DNA of 64,000 nt from the human T2T-CHM13v2.0 reference genome, Homo sapiens. Both the position numbers and the translations under genes were made by a program. Of this stretch, positions 27,548-45,497 are shown one piece after another. The first letter of the stretch is position 1. Each line of letters begins with the position of its first letter. Location of the stretch: NCBI RefSeq assembly GCF_009914755.1, contig NC_060930.1; one strand, 5' to 3'. Below the pieces are notes generated by a model that searched no databases, was not told the DNA's origin, and was given only the letters and a program-made list of their open reading frames with translations.

Positions 27548-29128
27548 TGAGAGGTGACAGCGTGCTGGCAGTCCTCACAGCCCTAGCTCGCTCTCGGCGC
27601 CTCCTCTGCCTGGGCTCCCACTTTGGCGGCACTTGAGGAGCCCTTCAGCCCACCGCTGCGCTGTGGGAGCCCCTTTCTGGGCCGGCCAATACCGGAGCCG
27701 GCTCCCTCAGCTTGCAGGGAGGCGTGGAGGGAGAGGCGCGAGCGGGAACCGGGGCTGCGCGCGGCTCTTGCGGGCCAGCTGGAGTTCCGGGTGGGCGTGG
27801 GCTTGGCGGGCCCCGCACTCGGAGCAGCCGGGCCCTGGGCAGTGAGGGGATTAGCACCCGGGCCAGCGGCTGCGGAGGGTGTACTGGGCCCCCAGCAGTG
27901 CCAGCCCACCGGCGCTGCGCTCGATTTCTCGCCGGGGCCTTAGCCGCCTTCCCGTGGAGCAGGGCTCGGGACCTGCAGCCCGCCGTGCCTGAGCCTCCCA
28001 CCCCCTCGGTGGGCTCCTGTGCGGCCCGAGCCTCCCCGATGAGCGCCGCCCCCTGCTCCATGGCGCTCAGTCCCATCGACCACCCAAGGGCTGAGGAGTG
28101 CCGGCGCACGGCGCGGGACTGGCAGGCAGCTCCACCTGCAGCCCCCGTGCGGGATCCACTGGGTGAAGCCAGCTGGGCTCCTGAGTCTGGTGGGGACGTG
28201 GAGAACCTTTATGTCTAGCTCAGGGATTGTAAATACGCCAATCTGCACCCTGTGTCTAGCTCAGGGTTTGTGAATGCACCAGTGGACACTCTATATCTAG
28301 CTACTCTGGTGGGGCCTTGGCGAACTTTTATGTCTAGCTCAGGGATTGTAAATATACCAATCAGCACCCTGTATCTAGCTCAAGGTTTGTAAACACACCA
28401 ATCAACACCCTGTGTCTAGCTCAGGGTTTGTGAATGCACCAGTCGACACTCTGTATCTAGCTACTCCAGTGGGGCCTTGGAGAACCTTTGTGTGGACACT
28501 CTATAGCTAATCTGGTGGGGATGTGGAGAACCTTTGTGTCTAGCTCAGGGATTGTAAACGCACCAATCAGCGCCCTGTCAAAACAGACCACTGGGCTCTA
28601 CCAATCAGCAGGATGTGGGTGGGGCCAGATAAGAGAATAAAAGCAGGCTGCCGAGCCGGCAGAGGCAACCCAGTTGGATCTCCTTCCATACTGTGGAAGC
28701 CTGGAACTTTCACTTTGTAATAAATTTCGTTACTGTTGCTCTTTGGGTCCACATCTGCCTTTATGAGCTGTAACACTCACTGAGGAGGTCTGCAGCTTCA
28801 TTTCTGTAAGGCAGCCAGACCAGGAGCCCGCCGGGAAGAACGAACAACGCCAGTCGCGCCACCTTAAGAGCTGTAACACACGTGGAAGGTCTGTAGCTTC
28901 ACTTCTGAGCCGGCGAAACCACAAACCCACCAGAAGGAAGAAACTCCGAACACATCTGAATATCAGAAGGCACAAACCCACCAGAAGGAAGAAACTCTGA
29001 ACACATCTGAATATCAGAAGGCACAAACTCTGGACACCACCTTTAAAAACTGTTAATGCTCACTGCGAGGGTCCGTGGTGTCATTTCTTGACGTCAGTGA
29101 GACCAAGAACCCACCAATTCCGGACACA
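27548..29128 (+). mobile_element. LTR12C (ERV9) solo LTR
   Basis: TGAGAGGTGACAGCGTGCTGGCAG start, CpG-rich U3, tandem TCTAGCT/CCAATC enhancer repeats, CCACCAATTCCGGACACA end. Confidence 0.95.
28601..28670 (+). promoter_or_regulatory. ERV9 LTR core promoter (CCAAT, GT box, GATA, AATAAAA TATA equivalent)
   Basis: CCAATCAGCAGGATGTGGGTGGGGCCAGATAAGAGAATAAAAGCAGG is intact. Confidence 0.7.
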
Positions 29129-29194
29129 TTTAATTTAAAAAGATTTTAATTCTAAGTTTATAACCCATTATCTTTACTCTCCAAAATAAATGCT

Positions 29195-29719
29195 CCAGTT
29201 TTTTATTGCTGTATAACATCTTCTGTGGCTTAAAACAGTAATAATTTTTATTTCTCATCTTTTCTCTAGGTGAGAAATTTTAGAAAGAACCAGCTAAGCA
29301 GTTGTGGCTTGGAATTTCTTAACACGTTAAGAGACAGAGCAACTGTAGCTGGAACAGAGGTGATTGGAGGAAGTATTGGGACAGTTGGAGACTGATCATC
29401 TTTTTCTTTCATGTAGTCTCAGAATCCAGCCATATGGACTCCACATGGTCTAGACTGAGCTTCCCAACAGCAAGGTAGCCTCAGGGCTGACAAACTGCTT
29501 ACGTGGCCAATCAAGACTTTAAGAACAGGCACACCAGCTAGCAAGGTAGAGGCTGCAGCACCTTTGGTCAGCTAGCCTTGTGAGGCTCATACATCACTTC
29601 TGCTCTCCTCTATTGGTAGCAATAGTGATCAAACGATGCCCAGTTTCAAGAAGAGGCGGCATACACCACACCTCTCTGCAATGGATGTCAAAGAATTTGC
29701 AGATGTTTTGAAACTGACA
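29195..29719 (-). mobile_element. MLT1 (G/H-like) MaLR LTR
   Basis: TATTGCTGTATAAC...GTGGCTTAAAACA start and GTCAAAGAATTTGCAG end. Confidence 0.7.
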
Positions 29720-29786
29720 TAATTGAAACAATTATGGTTATCTCACACACTTGCCTAAATAATGAATACCATATTTCCCATAAATG

Positions 29787-30088
29787 CAAATATTTAACAA
29801 ACATGTATTAAGCATTTCTTGAGTCACAGATGCTGTGGGTAAAAAAGATGAACACATAGTCAGCCCCCGAATGTTTTATTTCCTAATGAGAGAGAAAGAC
29901 ATAAATTGGTAGTACTACTGCATGAGAGACGCCTGCATTGTGATGGCACAGGGAGACGGGGAGCGGGGGTGCCGGAAAGAAAGTTCATGCATCCTGGAGG
30001 AATTAACCTTGAATTGAATCCCAAAAGATGGGTGGTGACTGGTTGTCTGTTCAGAGAGTGGGACCAGAAAAAAAGGCACGAAAAAGTG

Positions 30089-30129
<41 letters not shown>

Positions 30130-30700
30130 CCCAAGCGGGGTGTTTTTGTGGCATATGTTTGTGGCAAGGAATGTCAGAAAGTGAGGGTGGAGACAAGGCT
30201 AGATAATGAAGAGCTCATGGCTCAGGGAACCTAGCTAGAGCATCTCTTGAAACTCATGGGGAATTGTGGAAAGATTTAAAGCACAAGAGTGATATAATCC
30301 CATTTGTTCAGGCAGCTAGGGAGAAATGCAGAGTTAAGGACAGCAACAAAAAGATACTGTGTAGGGAACCAGCTGGAAAATTCTTGCAATAACTCTGGTG
30401 ATAAATATTGGAGTAAATAAAAGTAGCAATAAGGAGGATGGTACAAATATCTTAAATACCAAGTCAAGTCTAGATAACTTAATGATTAATTGGCTGTGGG
30501 ACCTGTACATACACAAAGGATTAAAACGGTGACTACTGTAAGATACTAGTAGGAGAAAGAGTATATGGTCACTAACTTTGAAGAAGCAGAAGGGGTTCTG
30601 GGAAAGATGAGTTAAGTTTTGCTCACATGGAGTTTGATGGTCCTTTGAGACTTCGGAGCCATATAGGATACCAAATATAAATAATAACAACTGGGGTTTG
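29787..30700 (-). mobile_element. Degenerate L2 fragments
   Basis: TTTAACAAACATGTATTAAGCATTT 3' end and GATGAGTTAAGTTTTG...GAGTTTGA. Confidence 0.5.
30091..30126. repeat. (GT)18 microsatellite
   Basis: Perfect GT run. Confidence 0.97.
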
Positions 30701-31245
30701 TACTTGGTGTAGACATCACTTTTCATAGCAGTGTGAAACTTTAGTGACATTTATCTAGTAATCCTGCAGGTCCTGGCCAGGCATCCACCTCCGAGATTCT
30801 TGCCAAGAATCCACCCACAGGTTCCCCACACAAGATTTCAATGCATGGCTTAATAAACTGCACGTCAGCAACACTAAAGAAAGACACAAACAAAAGGATA
30901 ATATCAACAGATACAGATCAAGATAAGGCACTCTAGTGGGTGGTATTACTATTTTTCCTCACGTTAGGAAAATAGTAGTAGCTTCCATAGTACAAAAATA
31001 TTTTGTACAGTCTATCAAGGGTGAAGTTTTTCCATTTTATATGCCAAAGTCTATGTGTGTGAACTAAACTCTGAATGGGTTCTCTTACTAAAACTTCAGT
31101 CGGGAGATAATTTTTCCATTGATGATATAAGCAAAGGTGTTTAACAAATAACATTTGATTTTGAAAACTATAACTTGATTATAATATTACATTTTTCCTC
31201 ATTCATTTATTTAATGACTTCAAAAGCATCACAGATTGTTGCTGC

Positions 31246-31544
31246 TTATGTGTATATAATTAGAATAACAGAAGGTGATATAATGAACAAGGAATAAATG
31301 AATTTGAAGTAATAATGGCTGAAAAATATCCAAAATTAAGACTGACACCAATGCACAGATCCAGGAAGGTCAGACAATACTAAGGTATATCATACTCAAC
31401 TTTCAGAAAACCTAGGAAAAAAGAAAATCATGAAGAAAGACATGGGGGGAAACCAACCATTACCTATAAAGAAACAAGGATAAGAATTACAGCTGATTTT
31501 TTTTAAATCAGAAGAAAAGGAAGGAGTGAAATCTTTAAATTGTT
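31246..31544 (+). repeat. Inverted duplicate of 32783-33097 (L1M ORF1-derived)
   Basis: Roughly 90% identical by eye to the reverse complement of 32783-33097. Confidence 0.9.
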
Positions 31545-31689
31545 TCAAAATATATCTGCAAATTCTTTGACATCCCTTGCAGTGGTGTGGTGTATGCCTA
31601 CTTCAGTGGACTTTCATTTTCAGTGGACTTTCAAATATTTAACCAACATTTATTAAGCATTTCTTCAGTGGACTTTCATTTTCCCCCAG

Positions 31690-33800
31690 TTGTCATGTTG
31701 CTATCATTATATGATTTACTTCTGCTTCTGCATATTTTAAACCTCATAACAAATTGCTAGCATTTTTCTTTGCTATAGACAATAATCTTAAGATGACTCA
31801 AAATTTTTAAAATGGCTTTTAGATTTACCCACAATTTTACGATTTCTGAAGATCTTCATTCCTTTGTGTAGATCTGCTTATTTGATATCATTTTCTTTCT
31901 ACCTAAATAACTTCTTTTAACCTTTCTTGTAGTACAGGTCTGCTCACAATAAATTTTTTCAGCTTTTCTTTGTCAAAAAATCATTTATTTAGCCTTCATT
32001 TTTGCAAGATATTTTCAAGAGTTATCAAATTCTAGGTGACAATTTTCTTTGAGTATTTTAAAGATCTCTCCTTGGTCTTCTTGCTTGCACAATTTCTGAC
32101 AAGCAGTCTCTTCTCATTTGGATCTTTCTTCCTCTGCATGTAGCGTGTCCTTATCTCTGGCTGACTTTGAGATTTTCTTTTTACCTGGGATTGTCAGCAG
32201 TTTGACTATGAGGTGTACCTACCTGAGTTTTTCGTATTCTCATTGCCTGTGTTTCCCTAAGCTTCTTGTTCTGTGATACATTCTCTTTCATTGCATTTGC
32301 TTAAATCTTTCTTTTTCTTTAATTTTTTTAGTTGTTCTCAAATTTACAGTATACATTTTAAATATTTAAATCCATCATCAAATAACATTATATTATTAAG
32401 GGTATAATACAGTTACCTTATAACAATATTACCAATTTCTCCCTCCCATCCCTTAAGGCATTGCTGTCATTAATACTATAATCACCTAATGCATTGTTAC
32501 TTCTGTTCCTTTAAATAGTAATTTTTCTGATAAGAATAAGAAAAAATTGAAAATTAATTTTTATTTAGTCTTTCTCTGACATTTTTCTTTTCTTTATGTC
32601 AGTCTAAGTTTATGACCTATAGTATTTTTCTTCTACCTTAAGTACTTCTCATATTTCTTACAGTACAGGTCTCCTGGAAATTAATTTGTTCAGTTTTGGC
32701 TTGACTGAGAATATATTTATTCTTAATTTTTGAAGGTTAATTTCCCTGGGTGTAGAATTCTAGACTGACAATTACTTTCTTTAACAATGTAAGGATTGCA
32801 CTCCTTCCTTTTCTTGCTTACATGGTTTCTGATTTAAAAAAAATATCAGCTGTAATTCTTATCCTTGTTTCTTTATAGGTAAAGGTGGGTTTTCCCCCTG
32901 TGTCTTTCTTCATGATTTTCTTTTTTCCTAGATTTTCTGCAAGTTGAGTATGAAACGCCTTAGTATTGTCTGACCTTCCTGGGTCTGTGGATTGGTGTCG
33001 GTGTTAATTTTGGATGGTTTTCAGCCATTATTACTTCAAATTTGTTTATTCTTTATTCATTATTTCTCCTTCTGTTATTCTATTTACATACACATAACGT
33101 TTTGACATTGTCCCACAGTTTTGAGGTGTTCTGGGTTTTTAAATTATTTTTTCTCTCTGTATTAATGTTTGGGCAGTTTTTGTAGTGCCTCCTTCAATTT
33201 CCCTAATTCTCTCCTCAGCTGCATCAAGTCTTCTGATAAGCTGCTGAAGGCATTCTTTATTTCTCTTACTGTGCCTTTTATTTCTAGGATTTCCTTTGGA
33301 TTTTTTATATTGCCCATATTGCTGCTGACATCAACCATTTGGTCTTGCATAGGGTCTACTGTTTGCATTAGATACCGTAACATGTTGATCACAGTTATTT
33401 TAAATTCCTTGATAATTCCAATACCTGTGTCATATTTGAGTTTAGTTCTGTTGATTGCTTTGTTTCTTCAGACCACTTTTTATCTCACCTTTTGGTATGC
33501 CTTGTAATGTTTTGTTGAAAGCCAGATATGGTGCATCAGTGACAGGTTCTGAAGTAAACAGGCCTTCGGTGTGAGGATGTTAACCTAACTAGGAGCTGGG
33601 CTGGGTTTACGGTTTTTATTGTCAGGTACCTGAGGCTTCAAATTCCTTTAGTGTCCCTGTTTTTCTTTCCTCCCTTGTCTCTGGGGCTTTGTATTGCACT
33701 GTTCCTCAGAGAGCTTGTGTCTTGCCACTGGAGTCTTGGTATGGTAGAAGAATGTAAGAAAGGAGATGAGTCCAATCATATTTAGATTAAGTTTTGGTCT
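31690..33800 (-). mobile_element. Old L1M ORF1-region fragments (at least two copies)
   Basis: GTACAGGTCT...CAGTTTT/CAGCTTT ORF1-end motifs occur twice; ORF 33162-33392 resembles the ORF1p coiled coil (EILEIKGTVREIKNAF). Confidence 0.75.
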
Positions 33801-33877
33801 TTTTTCCATATAAAATAGTGTTTACTATAATGTACATTTTACCATTGAGAAAATGGAGTGGGTGAATCCAATCACTT

Positions 33878-34228
33878 TGATATGATTTGGCTGTGTCCCC
33901 ATCCAAATCTCATTTTGAATTCCCACATGTTGTGGGAGGGACCTGGTGGGAGGTAACTGAATCATGGGGGAAGTCTTTCCCATGCTGTCCTTGCGATAGT
34001 GAATAAGTCTCACGAGATGTGAGGACTTTACAAAGAGGAGTTCCCCTGCACAAGCTCGCGCTGTTTGCTGCCATCCAGGTAAAGCATGACTTGCCCCTCC
34101 TTGCCTTCTGCCATGATTGTGAGGCCTCCCCAGCCATGTGGAACTGTAAGTCCATTAAACCTCTTTCTTTTATAAATTGCCCAGTCTCAGGTATGTCTTT
34201 ATCAGCAGCATGAAAACAGACTAATACA
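33878..34228 (+). mobile_element. THE1 (B/C-like) solo LTR
   Basis: TGATATGATTTGGCTGTGTCCCC start, GACTAATACA end, perfect TSD CACTT. Confidence 0.93.
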
Positions 34229-44044: not shown

Positions 44045-45497
44045 TGAAAGGTGACAACCTGCTGGCAGCCCTCGCTCGCTCTTGGCGCCTCCTCGGCCTC
44101 GGTGCCCACTCTGGCCGCGCTTGAGGAGCCCTTCAGCCCGCCGCTGCACTGTGGGAGCCCTTTCCTGGGATGGCCGAGGCAGGAGCCGGCTCCCTCAGAC
44201 TGCGGGGAGGTGTGGAGAGGCACGGGCGGGAACCAGGGTTGTGCGGCGCTTGGAGGCCAGTTAAGAGTTCCGGGTGGGCGTGGGCTTGGCGGGCCCCGCA
44301 CTCGGAGCGGCAGGCCGGCCTCGACGGCCCCGGGCAGTGAGGGGCTTAGCACCCAAGCCAGCAGCTGCGGAGCGTGCGCCAGGTCCCCCAGCAGTGCCGG
44401 CCGACGGTGAGTCTCCCCACCACCCCCCACCGCCGTGGGCTCCTGCGCGACGCGAGTTTCCCCGACGAGCGCAGCCCCCTGATTCAGGGCAGCCAATTCC
44501 ATCGATCTCCCAAGGACTGAAAAGTGCCGGCGCATGGCGCGGGAAGGGCAAGCAGCTCCACCTGCAGCACCAGTGCGAAATCCACTGGGTGAAGCCAGCT
44601 GGGCTCGAGAGTCTGGTGGGGACTTGGGGAATGTTTATGTCTAGCTAAGGGATTGTGAATGCACCAATCGGCACTCTATCTAGCTCAAGGTTTGTAAATG
44701 CACCAATCACCGCTCTGTGTCTAGCTAATCTGGTGGGGACTTGGAGAATCTTTAAGTCTAGCTAAGGGATTGTGAATGCACCAATCGGCACTCTGTATCT
44801 AGCTCAAGGTTTGTAAACACACCAATCAGCACCCTGTGTCTGGCTCAGAGTTTGTGAATGCACCAATCGACACTCTGTATCTAGCTAATGTAGTGGGGAT
44901 GTGGAGAACTTTTGTGTCTAGCTCAGGGATTGTAAACGCACCAATCAGCACCCTGTCAAAACGGACCAATGAGCTCTCTGTAAAACAGACCAATCAGCTC
45001 TCTGTAAAATGGACCAATCAGCAGGATGTGGGTGGGGCCAGATAAAGGAATAAAAGCAGGCTGCCCAGGCCCGCAGTGGTAATCAGCTGGGGTTTCCTTA
45101 GGGAGGTTGGAAGGTTTGTTCTTTCTCTCTTTGCAGTAAATCTTGCAGGTGTGTGTTTTTTGGGTTCATGCTGCTTGTATGAGCTGTGATGATTACCATG
45201 AAAGTTTGCAGCTTCACTTTTAAAACCAGTGAGAGCACAAACCCACCGGGAGGAACAAGCAATTCCAGACGTACTGCTTTAGGAGGTGTAACACTCACCG
45301 GCGAGGTTTGTAGCTTCACTCCTGAGCCAGTGAGACCACGAATCCACCAGCAGGAAAAAAAGATTCCAAACATGTCTGAATGTCAGAAGAAACAATTTCC
45401 AAACACACTGCCTTTAAGAACTGTAACACTCCCTGTGAGGGTCTATGGCTTCATTCTTTAAGTCAGTGAGACTAAGACGCCACCAATTCGGGGCACA
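44045..45497 (+). mobile_element. LTR12-family (ERV9) solo LTR
   Basis: TGAAAGGTGACAAC start, CCAATC enhancer repeats, CACCAATTCGGGGCACA end, 4-bp TSD CTGG/TTGG. Confidence 0.93.
45014..45085 (+). promoter_or_regulatory. ERV9 LTR core promoter
   Basis: CCAATCAGCAGGATGTGGGTGGGGCCAGATAAAGGAATAAAAGCAGG with several upstream CCAAT boxes. Confidence 0.7.

What the first reader, a model, noticed from the sequence alone, without database searches (positions are those of the whole stretch)
31246..31683. Mosaic of templated copies of nearby DNA: a likely fossil template-switching event
Seen: this ~440-bp block is assembled from neighbouring pieces. (A) 31246-31544 is an inverted copy of 32783-33097. 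(B) 31542-31598 is an inverted copy of 29658-29714 (the MLT1 end, GTTTCAAAA..ATCTGCAAATTCTTTGACATCC.TTGCAG..GGTGTGGTGTATGCC) and overlaps A by a GTT microhomology. (C) 31632-31665 is a direct copy of 29787-29820 (34 bp, 2 mismatches). (D) Short local duplications flank C. Donors lie on both sides within about 2 kb. Established: serial short templated insertions with microhomology are the signature of FoSTeS/MMBIR or Pol-theta end joining. Inference: one old germline repair event is preserved here, and repeat annotation would hide it as unrelated L1, MLT and L2 fragments.
Basis: partly seen in the sequence, partly recalled or inferred. Interest (0 to 1): 0.8.

Follow-up and report, generated by a model that had tools for sequence, protein, structure and literature searches.

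The report
Old patchwork insertion copied from neighbouring DNA
A 420-base stretch in a human chr6 lncRNA intron is stitched together from copies of three DNA pieces lying within 2 kb, most likely the scar of one ancient error-prone repair or replication accident of a known kind.

Summary
31246-31544 is an inverted copy of 32783-33097: 273 of 315 columns match, with 26 mismatches in 299 aligned bases. 31542-31598 is an inverted copy of 29658-29714 (52 of 59 columns). 31632-31669 is a direct copy of 29787-29824 (35 of 38). A 15-21-nt unit occurs three times around piece C.

Against the whole T2T genome, each piece matches its local donor far better than any other copy. In a tree with 17 other genomic L1 copies, A and its donor are sisters (100/100). 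They share 36 derived changes and two stop triplets seen in 0 of 17 others. The C 38-mer has only two places in 3.1 Gb at up to 3 mismatches: itself and its donor.

The three pieces are equally diverged from their donors (p = 0.72). They are the only local high-identity pairs in the 64-kb window outside roughly 300-nt, Alu-sized repeats and tandem arrays.

Best reading: one serial template-switching event (FoSTeS/MMBIR-like, or polymerase-theta-like at its short end). I estimate it at about 25-60 Myr old, using recalled substitution rates. No orthologues could be examined, so a single event is inferred, not shown. It is a new example of a known kind, of modest interest.

The parts
31246..31544 (+). 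Piece A: inverted copy of an L1 ORF1-region segment. It is in L1 sense orientation here, with non-L1 sequence on both sides.
   Evidence: 273 of 315 columns match the donor; sister of the donor with 100/100 support; the 13-nt gap is a deletion in A, since 16-17 of 17 other copies have bases there.
32783..33097 (-). Donor A: part of a continuous antisense old L1 fragment running from about 32302/32575 to beyond 33400.
   Evidence: other L1 copies align across both donor borders (for example query 8-401 and 1-340). So this is the original, embedded in its element.
31542..31598 (+). Piece B: inverted copy of the end region of an old LTR-like interspersed repeat. It overlaps A by GTT.
   Evidence: 52 of 59 columns match; the only genome-wide match is the local donor.
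29658..29714 (-). Donor B, inside an interspersed repeat at about 29403-29725.
   Evidence: three other genomic copies (64-71% identical) align across the 29658 border and on to 29719-29725.
31599..31600 (+). TA, two bases with no assigned template.
   Evidence: junction contexts.
31601..31621 (+). U1: first extra copy of the 21-nt target unit.
   Evidence: 21 of 21 identical to 31663-31683.
31622..31633 (+). U2: second, partial copy of the unit (AGTGGACTTTCA), joined to U1 through a TTC overlap.
   Evidence: the exact 15-mer at 31619-31633 equals those at 31602-31616 and 31664-31678.
31632..31669 (+). Piece C: direct copy of a 38-nt stretch of unique sequence. Its ends overlap U2 (CA) and U3 (CTT[C/G]AGT).
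   Evidence: 35 of 38 match; only two places genome-wide at up to 3 mismatches.
29787..29824 (+). Donor C, 73 nt from donor B, in sequence with no other genomic copy.
31663..31683 (+). U3: the presumed original target sequence, where synthesis finally rejoined the right flank.
   Evidence: That this copy is the original is inferred.
30880..31245 (.). Left flank: unique sequence, joined to A with no microhomology.
   Evidence: 1 of 1 matches is the query itself; junction J1.
31725..32211 (-). Right flank: an older, unrelated antisense L1 ORF1-region fragment. Its truncation on the L1 3' side abuts the mosaic.
   Evidence: homology to other copies starts at query position 126 or later, that is at 31725; 64.9% identical to the donor L1, and a long-branch outgroup in the tree.

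Best explanation
Window 31246-31662 (417 nt) is a single composite insertion. A DNA 3' end made it by copying, in turn, several nearby templates on both strands and on both sides of the break before rejoining its own flank.

Read left to right on the + strand, the path is as follows.
1. From the unique left flank, the end copied 33097 down to 32783 of an already decayed antisense L1. This gave piece A (299 nt, inverted).
2. It switched through GTT to 29714 down to 29658, in an LTR-like repeat 1.8 kb to the left. An alternative reading is a switch through ATTGTT at a site 9 nt away, followed by a slip. This gave piece B (57 nt, inverted).
3. After two unassigned bases (TA), it landed on the 21-nt target unit of the right flank. 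This gave U1.
4. It slipped back by 17 nt through TTC and recopied 12 nt of the unit. This gave U2.
5. It switched through CA to 29787-29824, only 73 nt from donor B. This gave piece C (direct).
6. It returned through CTT[C/G]AGT to the target unit (U3) and continued into the right flank.

Shown: each piece derives from its local donor and is not an independent member of a repeat family.

Inferred:
- All switches belong to one episode.
- The process was microhomology-primed serial template switching (FoSTeS/MMBIR type). The short stuttering part resembles polymerase-theta or synthesis-dependent MMEJ repair.
- The event may have deleted the 3' part of the flanking older L1.
- It happened roughly 25-60 Myr ago.
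For: Local origin of piece A:
- The genome-wide search lists 41 matches (310 candidates, 40 scored). The local donor gives 87% over 299 nt. The longest other matches give 66% over 283 nt and 69% over 241 nt. The reciprocal search agrees.
- In an alignment with 17 other genomic L1 copies, A and its donor are 91% identical. A against the others has a mean of 69.6% and a maximum of 74.3%.
- Of 254 scorable columns, 36 are shared-derived, 8 are private to A and 10 are private to the donor.
- In the IQ-TREE tree, A and the donor are sisters (100/100). The shared stem is 0.20 and the tips are 0.046 and 0.058.
- Two shared TAA triplets occur in 0 of 17 other copies.

Local origin of pieces B and C:
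- The only genome-wide matches of 31540-31700 are itself and the two donors.
- The C 38-mer has 2 places in the genome and its control pattern has 0.
- The other three copies of B's family match B less well than the donor does.

Direction of copying: donors A and B are embedded in continuous repeats. Piece A is flanked by unique DNA on one side and by piece B on the other.

One episode:
- Mismatch rates are 26/299, 3/55 and 3/38, which are homogeneous (chi-square p = 0.72).
- The pieces abut or overlap.
- Donors B and C lie 73 nt apart.
- Of the 36 local pairs (within 5 kb, at least 80% identity, at least 30 nt) in the 64-kb window, only A, B and C lie outside ~300-nt Alu-sized repeats and two tandem arrays.

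Microhomology at the joins: J2 3 nt (or 6), J4 3 nt, J5 2 nt, J6 3 nt exact or 6 of 7.

Known parallels, from passages read:
- An 861-bp breakpoint insertion drawn from two flanking regions, ascribed to three template switches (PMC6902434).
Against: - No orthologue or empty site could be examined, so one event as opposed to two or more is not shown.
- Two of the six joins show no microhomology: J1 has 0 nt, and J3 has 0 nt plus 2 unassigned bases.
- The three U copies show no differences, although about 2.3 substitutions would be expected at the divergence of A, B and C. That gives P of about 0.10 by my own arithmetic. It could mean that the U/C part is younger, yet C itself differs from its donor at 3 of 38 positions.
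- A 299-nt tract copied from 1.2-1.8 kb away is long for polymerase-theta insertions. The short stutter is not specific to MMBIR. The pathway therefore stays open.
- Only 40 of 310-322 candidate L1 copies were scored in each search, and only three other copies of B's family were retrieved. An unsampled closer relative is unlikely but not excluded.
- The copy shows no excess of private changes (8 against 10 for the donor). There is thus no sign of error-prone synthesis apart from the 13-nt deletion in A.
Confidence: 0.75

Rival explanations
1. There were two or more separate local events at the same spot. For example, an A+B inverted templated insertion came first, and a small duplication-plus-insertion (U1, U2, C) arose a few bases away at another time.
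For: - The U copies are identical to each other (21 of 21 and 15 of 15), while A, B and C are about 8% diverged from their donors.
- J3, between B and U1, has no microhomology and carries 2 unassigned bases.
- Fragile or repair-prone sites can be hit repeatedly. This point is from general knowledge.
Against: - C is as diverged from its donor (3 of 38) as A is (26 of 299); homogeneity p = 0.72.
- Donor C lies 73 nt from donor B although both are about 1.85 kb from the block. I estimate about a 5% chance of this for an independent draw within plus or minus 2 kb.
- Identical U copies have a P of about 0.10 under one age, which is not significant.
Confidence: 0.13
2. Ordinary repeat content: A, B and C are independent insertions or remnants of L1, LTR and other families, and only happen to lie near relatives.
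For: A and B do belong to interspersed repeat families with many or several genomic copies.
Against: - A and its donor are sisters (100/100), with 36 shared-derived changes against 8 and 10 private ones, and two shared stop triplets absent from 17 of 17 other copies.
- A has no L1 3' end or poly(A).
- C has no other copy in 3.1 Gb.
- Apart from Alu-sized repeats and tandem arrays, these are the only such local pairs in 64 kb.
Confidence: 0.02
3. End-joining capture: free DNA fragments copied or released from the neighbourhood were ligated into a double-strand break by classical NHEJ, without priming on templates.
For: The joins at J1 and J3 show no microhomology. Capture of DNA fragments at breaks is known; templated sequence insertion polymorphisms are an example (PMC5110952, search listing and abstract start only).
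Against: - All three donors are intact, so the fragments must have been copies.
- Four of six joins have 2-7 nt overlaps.
- The three-fold re-landing on one 15-nt target, with a 17-nt slip, is a synthesis footprint and not a ligation product.
Confidence: 0.07
4. An L1-mediated origin: twin priming (5' inversion), or a template switch by the L1 reverse transcriptase during insertion of the donor L1.
For: A is an inverted L1 piece near an L1 of the same lineage. 5'-inverted L1 insertions are common; this is recalled from Ostertag and Kazazian 2001 and was not seen in any call.
Against: - A duplicates the same L1 coordinates as the donor, not an adjacent part.
- A lies on the 3' side of the antisense donor, 1,238 nt away, with an older unrelated L1 in between.
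- About 80% of the lineage's divergence (stem 0.20 against tips of about 0.05) had accumulated before the copy was made.
- B and C are copies of genomic DNA in opposite orientations.
- There is no poly(A).
Confidence: 0.01

Closest known systems
FoSTeS/MMBIR complex breakpoint insertions in human copy-number variants. An example is the 861-bp insertion from two flanking regions ascribed to three template switches at PLP1 (PMC6902434, passages read).
   Same: - Several segments, hundreds of bases in total, copied from nearby sequence on either side.
- Mixed orientations.
- Joins with 2-9 nt microhomology or imperfect 'microhomeology'.
- Donors retained.
   Different: - Here the event is fixed and old (about 8% diverged from its donors), not a new pathogenic variant.
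- It is not attached to a large duplication or triplication.
- It ends with a three-fold stutter on the target.
Polymerase-theta or synthesis-dependent MMEJ templated insertions. PMC2895639: passages read. PMC2943611: search listing only.
   Same: - Repeated priming, short synthesis, dissociation and re-annealing at microhomologies.
- The U1-U2-C-U3 part (12-38-nt pieces with 2-7 nt overlaps) looks like such a 'synthesis footprint'.
   Different: - Piece A is 299 nt, and its template lies 1.2-1.8 kb away.
- The templates lie on both sides and on both strands.
- From my recall, typical polymerase-theta inserts are tens of bases from the immediate flank.
Short-range template switches in human and great-ape evolution, the four-point model. 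PMC5453318: passages read. PMC7954356: listing and abstract start only.
   Same: An evolutionary, fixed record of a nascent strand copying a nearby template in reverse complement. The process creates a new inverted repeat without needing a pre-existing one.
   Different: That model covers one switch-and-return over short range. Its authors state that they do not attempt long-range switches or multiple successive rounds. This block needs at least five or six switches over plus or minus 1.9 kb.
MMBIR-linked templated insertions detected by MMBSearch (PMC8421209, passages read).
   Same: Inverted copies of a nearby template, flanked by microhomology. Several templates and larger sizes are noted for human events.
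   Different: That tool's signature is a template within 100 bp and an insert no longer than a sequencing read. Here the distances are 1.2-1.9 kb and one piece is a direct copy.
L1 5' inversion by twin priming (recalled; not seen in any call).
   Same: An inverted L1 segment lies next to an L1 of the same lineage.
   Different: The copy was made from a long-decayed element, it duplicates the same coordinates, and it is joined to non-L1 genomic copies.

Membership tests
Serial template-switch insertion (FoSTeS/MMBIR type) | Each inserted segment has an identifiable template nearby that fits better than any other sequence in the genome. | tested here: met
   A matches its donor at 87-91%, against at most 74% for 17 full-length relatives. 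The only genome-wide matches of B and C are their local donors.
Serial template-switch insertion (FoSTeS/MMBIR type) | Two or more segments of differing origin and orientation are joined directly, and the donors are retained. | tested here: met
   A and B are inverted, C and the U copies are direct, and all donors are intact.
Serial template-switch insertion (FoSTeS/MMBIR type) | Microhomology or microhomeology is present at the join-points. | tested here: inconclusive
   Four of six joins have 2-7 nt overlaps and two have none. After about 8% divergence the original joins may be blurred, and no chance expectation was computed.
Serial template-switch insertion (FoSTeS/MMBIR type) | All joins arose in one event, that is one generation. 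| not testable with these tools
   This needs orthologous sequences. The only indirect support is equal divergence (p = 0.72), donors B and C 73 nt apart, and uniqueness within 64 kb.
Polymerase-theta-mediated end joining insertion | Short inserts (tens of nt) are templated from the immediate flanks, with repeated re-priming. | tested here: inconclusive
   The U1/U2/C part fits. A (299 nt, template 1.2-1.8 kb away) does not fit the typical size, which I cite from recall.
Independent members of repeat families (the ordinary annotation view) | Each piece is no closer to its neighbour than to other family copies, and carries no shared post-insertion mutations. | tested here: not met
   36 shared-derived columns, a 100/100 sister pair, and 2 shared stop triplets in 0 of 17 others.
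L1 twin-priming 5' inversion | The inverted segment is the adjacent upstream part of the same L1 RNA, made at insertion, within one poly(A)/TSD-bounded element. | tested here: not met
   A has the same L1 coordinates as its donor. The copy was made after about 80% of the lineage's divergence had accumulated. An older L1 lies between the two.
L1 ORF1 region (identity of A and its donor) | A significant match to L1 ORF1 protein families. | tested here: inconclusive
   - Pfam on A and on the donor alone: 0 families.
- Longer read-throughs: Tnp_22_dsRBD at E = 0.15 and 0.017, below the curated cut-off.
- PDB: 0 hits.
- The label also rests on hundreds of genomic relatives and on my recall of the ORF1p sequence.

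The most novel reading that the evidence does not exclude
The block is a step-by-step record of one germline repair episode with at least six template switches over plus or minus 1.9 kb, including three landings on the same 15-nt target. Under this reading it is one visible member of a large, uncatalogued class of ancient, long-range, multi-round template-switch insertions that repeat annotation files as unrelated orphan fragments. A single-genome test, 'the local donor beats every family member', could then find them genome-wide and give a germline rate for this process. As a by-product, the event created a 299-nt inverted repeat with a 1,238-nt spacer in an lncRNA intron, which could fold into a long double-stranded RNA.
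Probability: 0.25. Interest if true: 0.55.

Novelty: new member of a known kind. Interest (0 to 1): 0.35.

Why it matters
Complex templated insertions are well documented in disease-causing copy-number variants and in tumours. [quoted passage not shown]

This locus shows that such an event can still be recognised after tens of millions of years, and from one genome alone. The test is to ask whether a repeat 'fragment' is closer to a neighbour than to any other family member, and whether it shares that neighbour's post-insertion decay.

The locus itself has no evident function. It lies in an intron of the uncharacterised lncRNA LOC105374914 (hub annotation). The only conceivable consequence is a long intronic RNA hairpin, with a predicted duplex energy of -417 kcal/mol. 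Whether that hairpin forms was not tested.

Tried and rejected
- Protein-level identification of piece A as L1 ORF1 led nowhere firm. Pfam on A and on its donor, with stops read as X, gave 0 families. The PDB sequence search gave 0 hits at E up to 10. Longer read-throughs of both L1 fragments gave only sub-threshold Tnp_22_dsRBD matches.
- Earlier findings of this scan were not open to the session.
- I tested whether the neighbouring antisense L1 fragment (31845-32211) is an older local duplicate of the donor L1. It is not. It is 64.9% identical and sits as a long-branch outgroup in the tree.
- I looked for further templated pieces in 31225-31700 by exact 10-mer matches within 27-36 kb. Beyond A, B, C and U there are only scattered 10-12-mers at the level I would expect by chance for this search space. 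One exception is the 11-mer AATTGTTTCAA across the A/B join. It recurs 9 nt from donor B and may mean a 6-nt rather than a 3-nt microhomology.
- I looked for more copies of B's repeat family. Two searches returned the same three overlapping copies.
- Not tried: naming the repeat families or comparing with family consensus sequences (no library was available), and orthologue comparison (no other primate genome was available).
- I considered and rejected an assembly artefact. The copies differ from their donors by about 8%, with indels, as old paralogous sequence would.

Full report
**1. What is there**

The window is human T2T-CHM13 chr6:8,866,001-8,930,000 (hub note; confirmed). I read 29,500-33,300 and searched 29,000-34,000 for repeats. 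I also ran BLAST of 31,200-31,720 against the whole window and made pairwise alignments with flanks.

- Piece A (31246-31544) aligns in reverse complement to 33097-32783. 273 of 315 columns match. There are 26 mismatches in 299 aligned bases, with gaps of 1, 2 and 13 nt.
- Piece B (31542-31598) aligns in reverse complement to 29714-29658. 52 of 59 columns match.
- Piece C (31632-31669) aligns directly to 29787-29824, with 35 of 38 matching.
- The homology stops sharply at all borders.
- Around C, the 21-mer CTTCAGTGGACTTTCATTTTC occurs at 31601-31621 and, identical, at 31663-31683. A partial copy lies between them. The exact 15-mer TTCAGTGGACTTTCA starts at 31602, 31619 and 31664.

**2. Local copies or ordinary family members?**

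It could be run because the whole genome is searchable.

*Piece A.*
- The query 31246-31683 gave 41 listed matches (310 first-look candidates, 40 scored). The local donor matches at 87% over all 299 nt. The longest other matches reach 66% over 283 nt and 69% over 241 nt. Shorter ones reach 78-79% over about 130 nt and up to 87% over 67 nt.
- The reciprocal search with the donor gave the same picture: A at 87%, and the next full-length copy at 67%.
- I extracted 17 non-redundant genomic copies that cover nearly the whole segment and aligned them with A and the donor. A and the donor are 91% identical. A against the others averages 69.6% with a maximum of 74.3%. The donor against the others averages 69.5% with a maximum of 73.1%. 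The others among themselves average 72.0%.
- Of 254 scorable columns, A and the donor share a state different from the clear majority of the others in 36. A alone differs in 8, the donor alone in 10, and all three differ in 5.
- A maximum-likelihood tree puts A and the donor together with 100/100 support. The shared stem is 0.20 substitutions per site and the tips are 0.046 and 0.058. The other copies form a star with tips of 0.10-0.24.
- Two TAA triplets in the presumed ORF1 frame are shared by A and the donor and occur in 0 of 17 other copies.
- The copy was therefore taken from an element that had already passed about four fifths of its decay. It is not a second insertion of the same family, and it is not a product of the L1's own insertion.

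*Pieces B and C.*
- The query 31540-31700 found only itself and the two local donors in the genome.
- The C 38-mer, with up to 3 mismatches, has two places in 3.1 Gb: itself and the donor 1,845 bp upstream. The reversed control pattern has none.
- Donor B lies in an old interspersed repeat at about 29403-29725. Two searches retrieved three other copies that overlap it, at 64-71% identity. These match piece B at 87.5% over 32 nt, at 76.5% over 51 nt, and over 15 nt only. The local donor matches at 52 of 55 aligned bases over the full 57 nt.
- For B the discrimination is real, but it rests on few comparators.

*Direction of copying.* Other L1 copies align across both borders of donor A. Other LTR-like copies align across the borders of donor B. 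Piece A, by contrast, is flanked on the left by sequence with no other copy in the genome and on the right by B. The donors are therefore the originals.

**3. One event or several?**

This cannot be shown without orthologues. Four observations favour one episode.
- The mismatch rates to the donors are 26/299, 3/55 and 3/38. These are statistically homogeneous (chi-square p = 0.72; pooled 8.2%).
- The pieces abut or overlap with no foreign sequence between them apart from two bases, TA.
- Donors B and C are 73 nt apart although both lie about 1.85 kb from the block.
- A self-comparison of the whole 64-kb window found 36 local pairs (within 5 kb, at least 80% identity, at least 30 nt). All of them except A, B and C are roughly 300-nt elements that coincide with the masked, Alu-sized stretches, or belong to two tandem arrays.

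One point goes the other way. The U copies show no differences, where I would expect about 2.3 substitutions at the divergence of A, B and C. That gives P of about 0.10 by my arithmetic. The U/C part could therefore be somewhat younger, although C itself is as diverged as A.

**4. Anatomy of the joins**

| Join | Pieces | Overlap |
|---|---|---|
| J1 | left flank to A | none |
| J2 | A to B | GTT |
| J3 | B to U1 | none, with TA of unassigned origin |
| J4 | U1 to U2 | TTC, a 17-nt backward slip |
| J5 | U2 to C | CA |
| J6 | C to U3 | AGT or CTT exact, or CTT[C/G]AGT at 6 of 7 |

For J2 there is an alternative. The 11-mer AATTGTTTCAA spanning the join also occurs at 29733-29723 on the minus strand, 9 nt from donor B. 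The switch may therefore have used ATTGTT, followed by a slip between the two GTTTCAA repeats.

The 13-nt gap in A is a deletion in A, since 16-17 of 17 other copies have bases there. It lies between AGAA and AAGAA. The 2-nt gap is an insertion in the donor, since only 0-1 of 17 others have bases there.

The copy carries no excess of private substitutions: 8 against 10 for the donor.

**5. Surroundings**

- 29726-31245 is unique sequence that holds donor C and a (GT)n run.
- To the right of the block, homology to other L1 copies begins at about 31725 at the earliest. This is an older antisense L1 ORF1-region fragment, unrelated to the donor L1 (64.9% identity; a long-branch outgroup in the tree).
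- That fragment lacks everything on its L1 3' side, and its truncation abuts the mosaic. The event may therefore have been a deletion with a templated filler. This is inference only.

**6. Mechanism**

*Favoured model (confidence 0.75).* The structure is what serial, microhomology-primed template switching produces. A free 3' end copies 299 nt from one strand 1.2-1.8 kb to the right. It then copies 57 nt from 1.8 kb to the left. It makes two abortive landings on its proper target, copies 38 nt again next to the second donor, and finally rejoins the target.

*Parallels in the passages I read.*
- Human CNV breakpoints with 'iterative' template switches are documented, including an 861-bp insertion from two flanking regions ascribed to three switches. 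Microhomology of 2-9 bp or imperfect microhomeology occurs at many joins (PMC6902434).
- MMBIR-linked templated insertions are described as inverted copies of nearby templates flanked by microhomology (PMC8421209).

*Which pathway.* The long piece A and the kilobase distances favour a replicative, MMBIR-like process. The short stutter fits either process. Sequence alone cannot decide.

*Rivals.*
- Two or more events at one site (0.13).
- Capture of free fragments by end joining (0.07).
- Independent repeat insertions (0.02).
- L1 twin priming (0.01).

**7. Age**

The pooled pairwise mismatch is 8.2%. The Jukes-Cantor distance is 0.086, or 0.043 per lineage (95% interval 0.029-0.061). The tree tips are 0.046 and 0.058.

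With a substitution rate of about 1-1.2e-9 per site per year on the lineage to humans, this gives roughly 25-60 Myr, with a best guess near 40 Myr. The rate is recalled and comes from no call. The date would place the event near the catarrhine or simian stem, which is a testable prediction.

**8. Comparison with what is known, and novelty**

- The block works like a FoSTeS/MMBIR-type complex insertion.
- It differs from published evolutionary template-switch catalogues. Those model one short-range switch-and-return and explicitly exclude long-range or multi-round events (PMC5453318; PMC7954356 seen as listing and abstract start only).
- My four literature searches did not list a description of this locus. 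They were not designed to find one.
- I rate it a new member of a known kind: a clean, old, well-resolved example without evident function.
- It created a 299-nt inverted repeat with a 1,238-nt spacer inside an intron of lncRNA LOC105374914. The predicted RNA duplex energy is -417 kcal/mol. Whether that pairing ever matters is untested.

**9. Limits**

- No repeat-family library was available, so the names MLT1 and L2 are unverified. 'L1 ORF1' rests on sub-threshold Pfam matches, on genomic relatives, and on my recall.
- No other primate genome was available.
- The genome searches score only the best 40 candidates.
- B's family is represented by three copies.

Noticed in passing
window 31845-32211 and 32575-32953: Two antisense L1 ORF1-region fragments lie in tandem about 730 nt apart and cover the same L1 coordinates. 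They are only 64.9% identical, and the left one is a long-branch outgroup in the tree, so it is a different, older L1. Both lack their L1 3' parts. The left fragment's truncation (about 31725) abuts the mosaic, which hints that the event also deleted sequence.
   Followed up: partly
window 31538-31548 and 29723-29733: The exact 11-mer AATTGTTTCAA spanning the A/B join recurs in reverse complement 9 nt from donor B. The switch may have used a 6-nt microhomology (ATTGTT) followed by a slip between two GTTTCAA repeats, and not the 3-nt GTT.
   Followed up: partly
window 28186-28578 and 44638-44956: Two tandem-repeat arrays are related to each other: 28214-28372 against 44798-44956 is 86.8% identical over 159 nt. 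Internal repeats are spaced about 80-160 nt apart. The family was not identified.
   Followed up: no
window 29726-31245: About 1.5 kb of sequence with no other copy detected in the genome. It holds donor C and a (GT)n microsatellite at about 30094-30127.
   Followed up: partly
window 31246-31544 with 32783-33097: The event created a 299-nt inverted repeat (91% identity over aligned bases, 1,238-nt spacer) inside an intron of the + strand lncRNA LOC105374914. The predicted RNA duplex energy is -417 kcal/mol. It is a possible long double-stranded RNA, but this is untested.
   Followed up: partly
window 32302-32640: An interspersed repeat, with genomic copies 66-75% identical that align from about 32302 to 32638. 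It begins at a T-rich run (about 32306-32330) and runs into the donor L1 fragment. I did not resolve whether it is the continuation of that L1 or a separate element.
   Followed up: no
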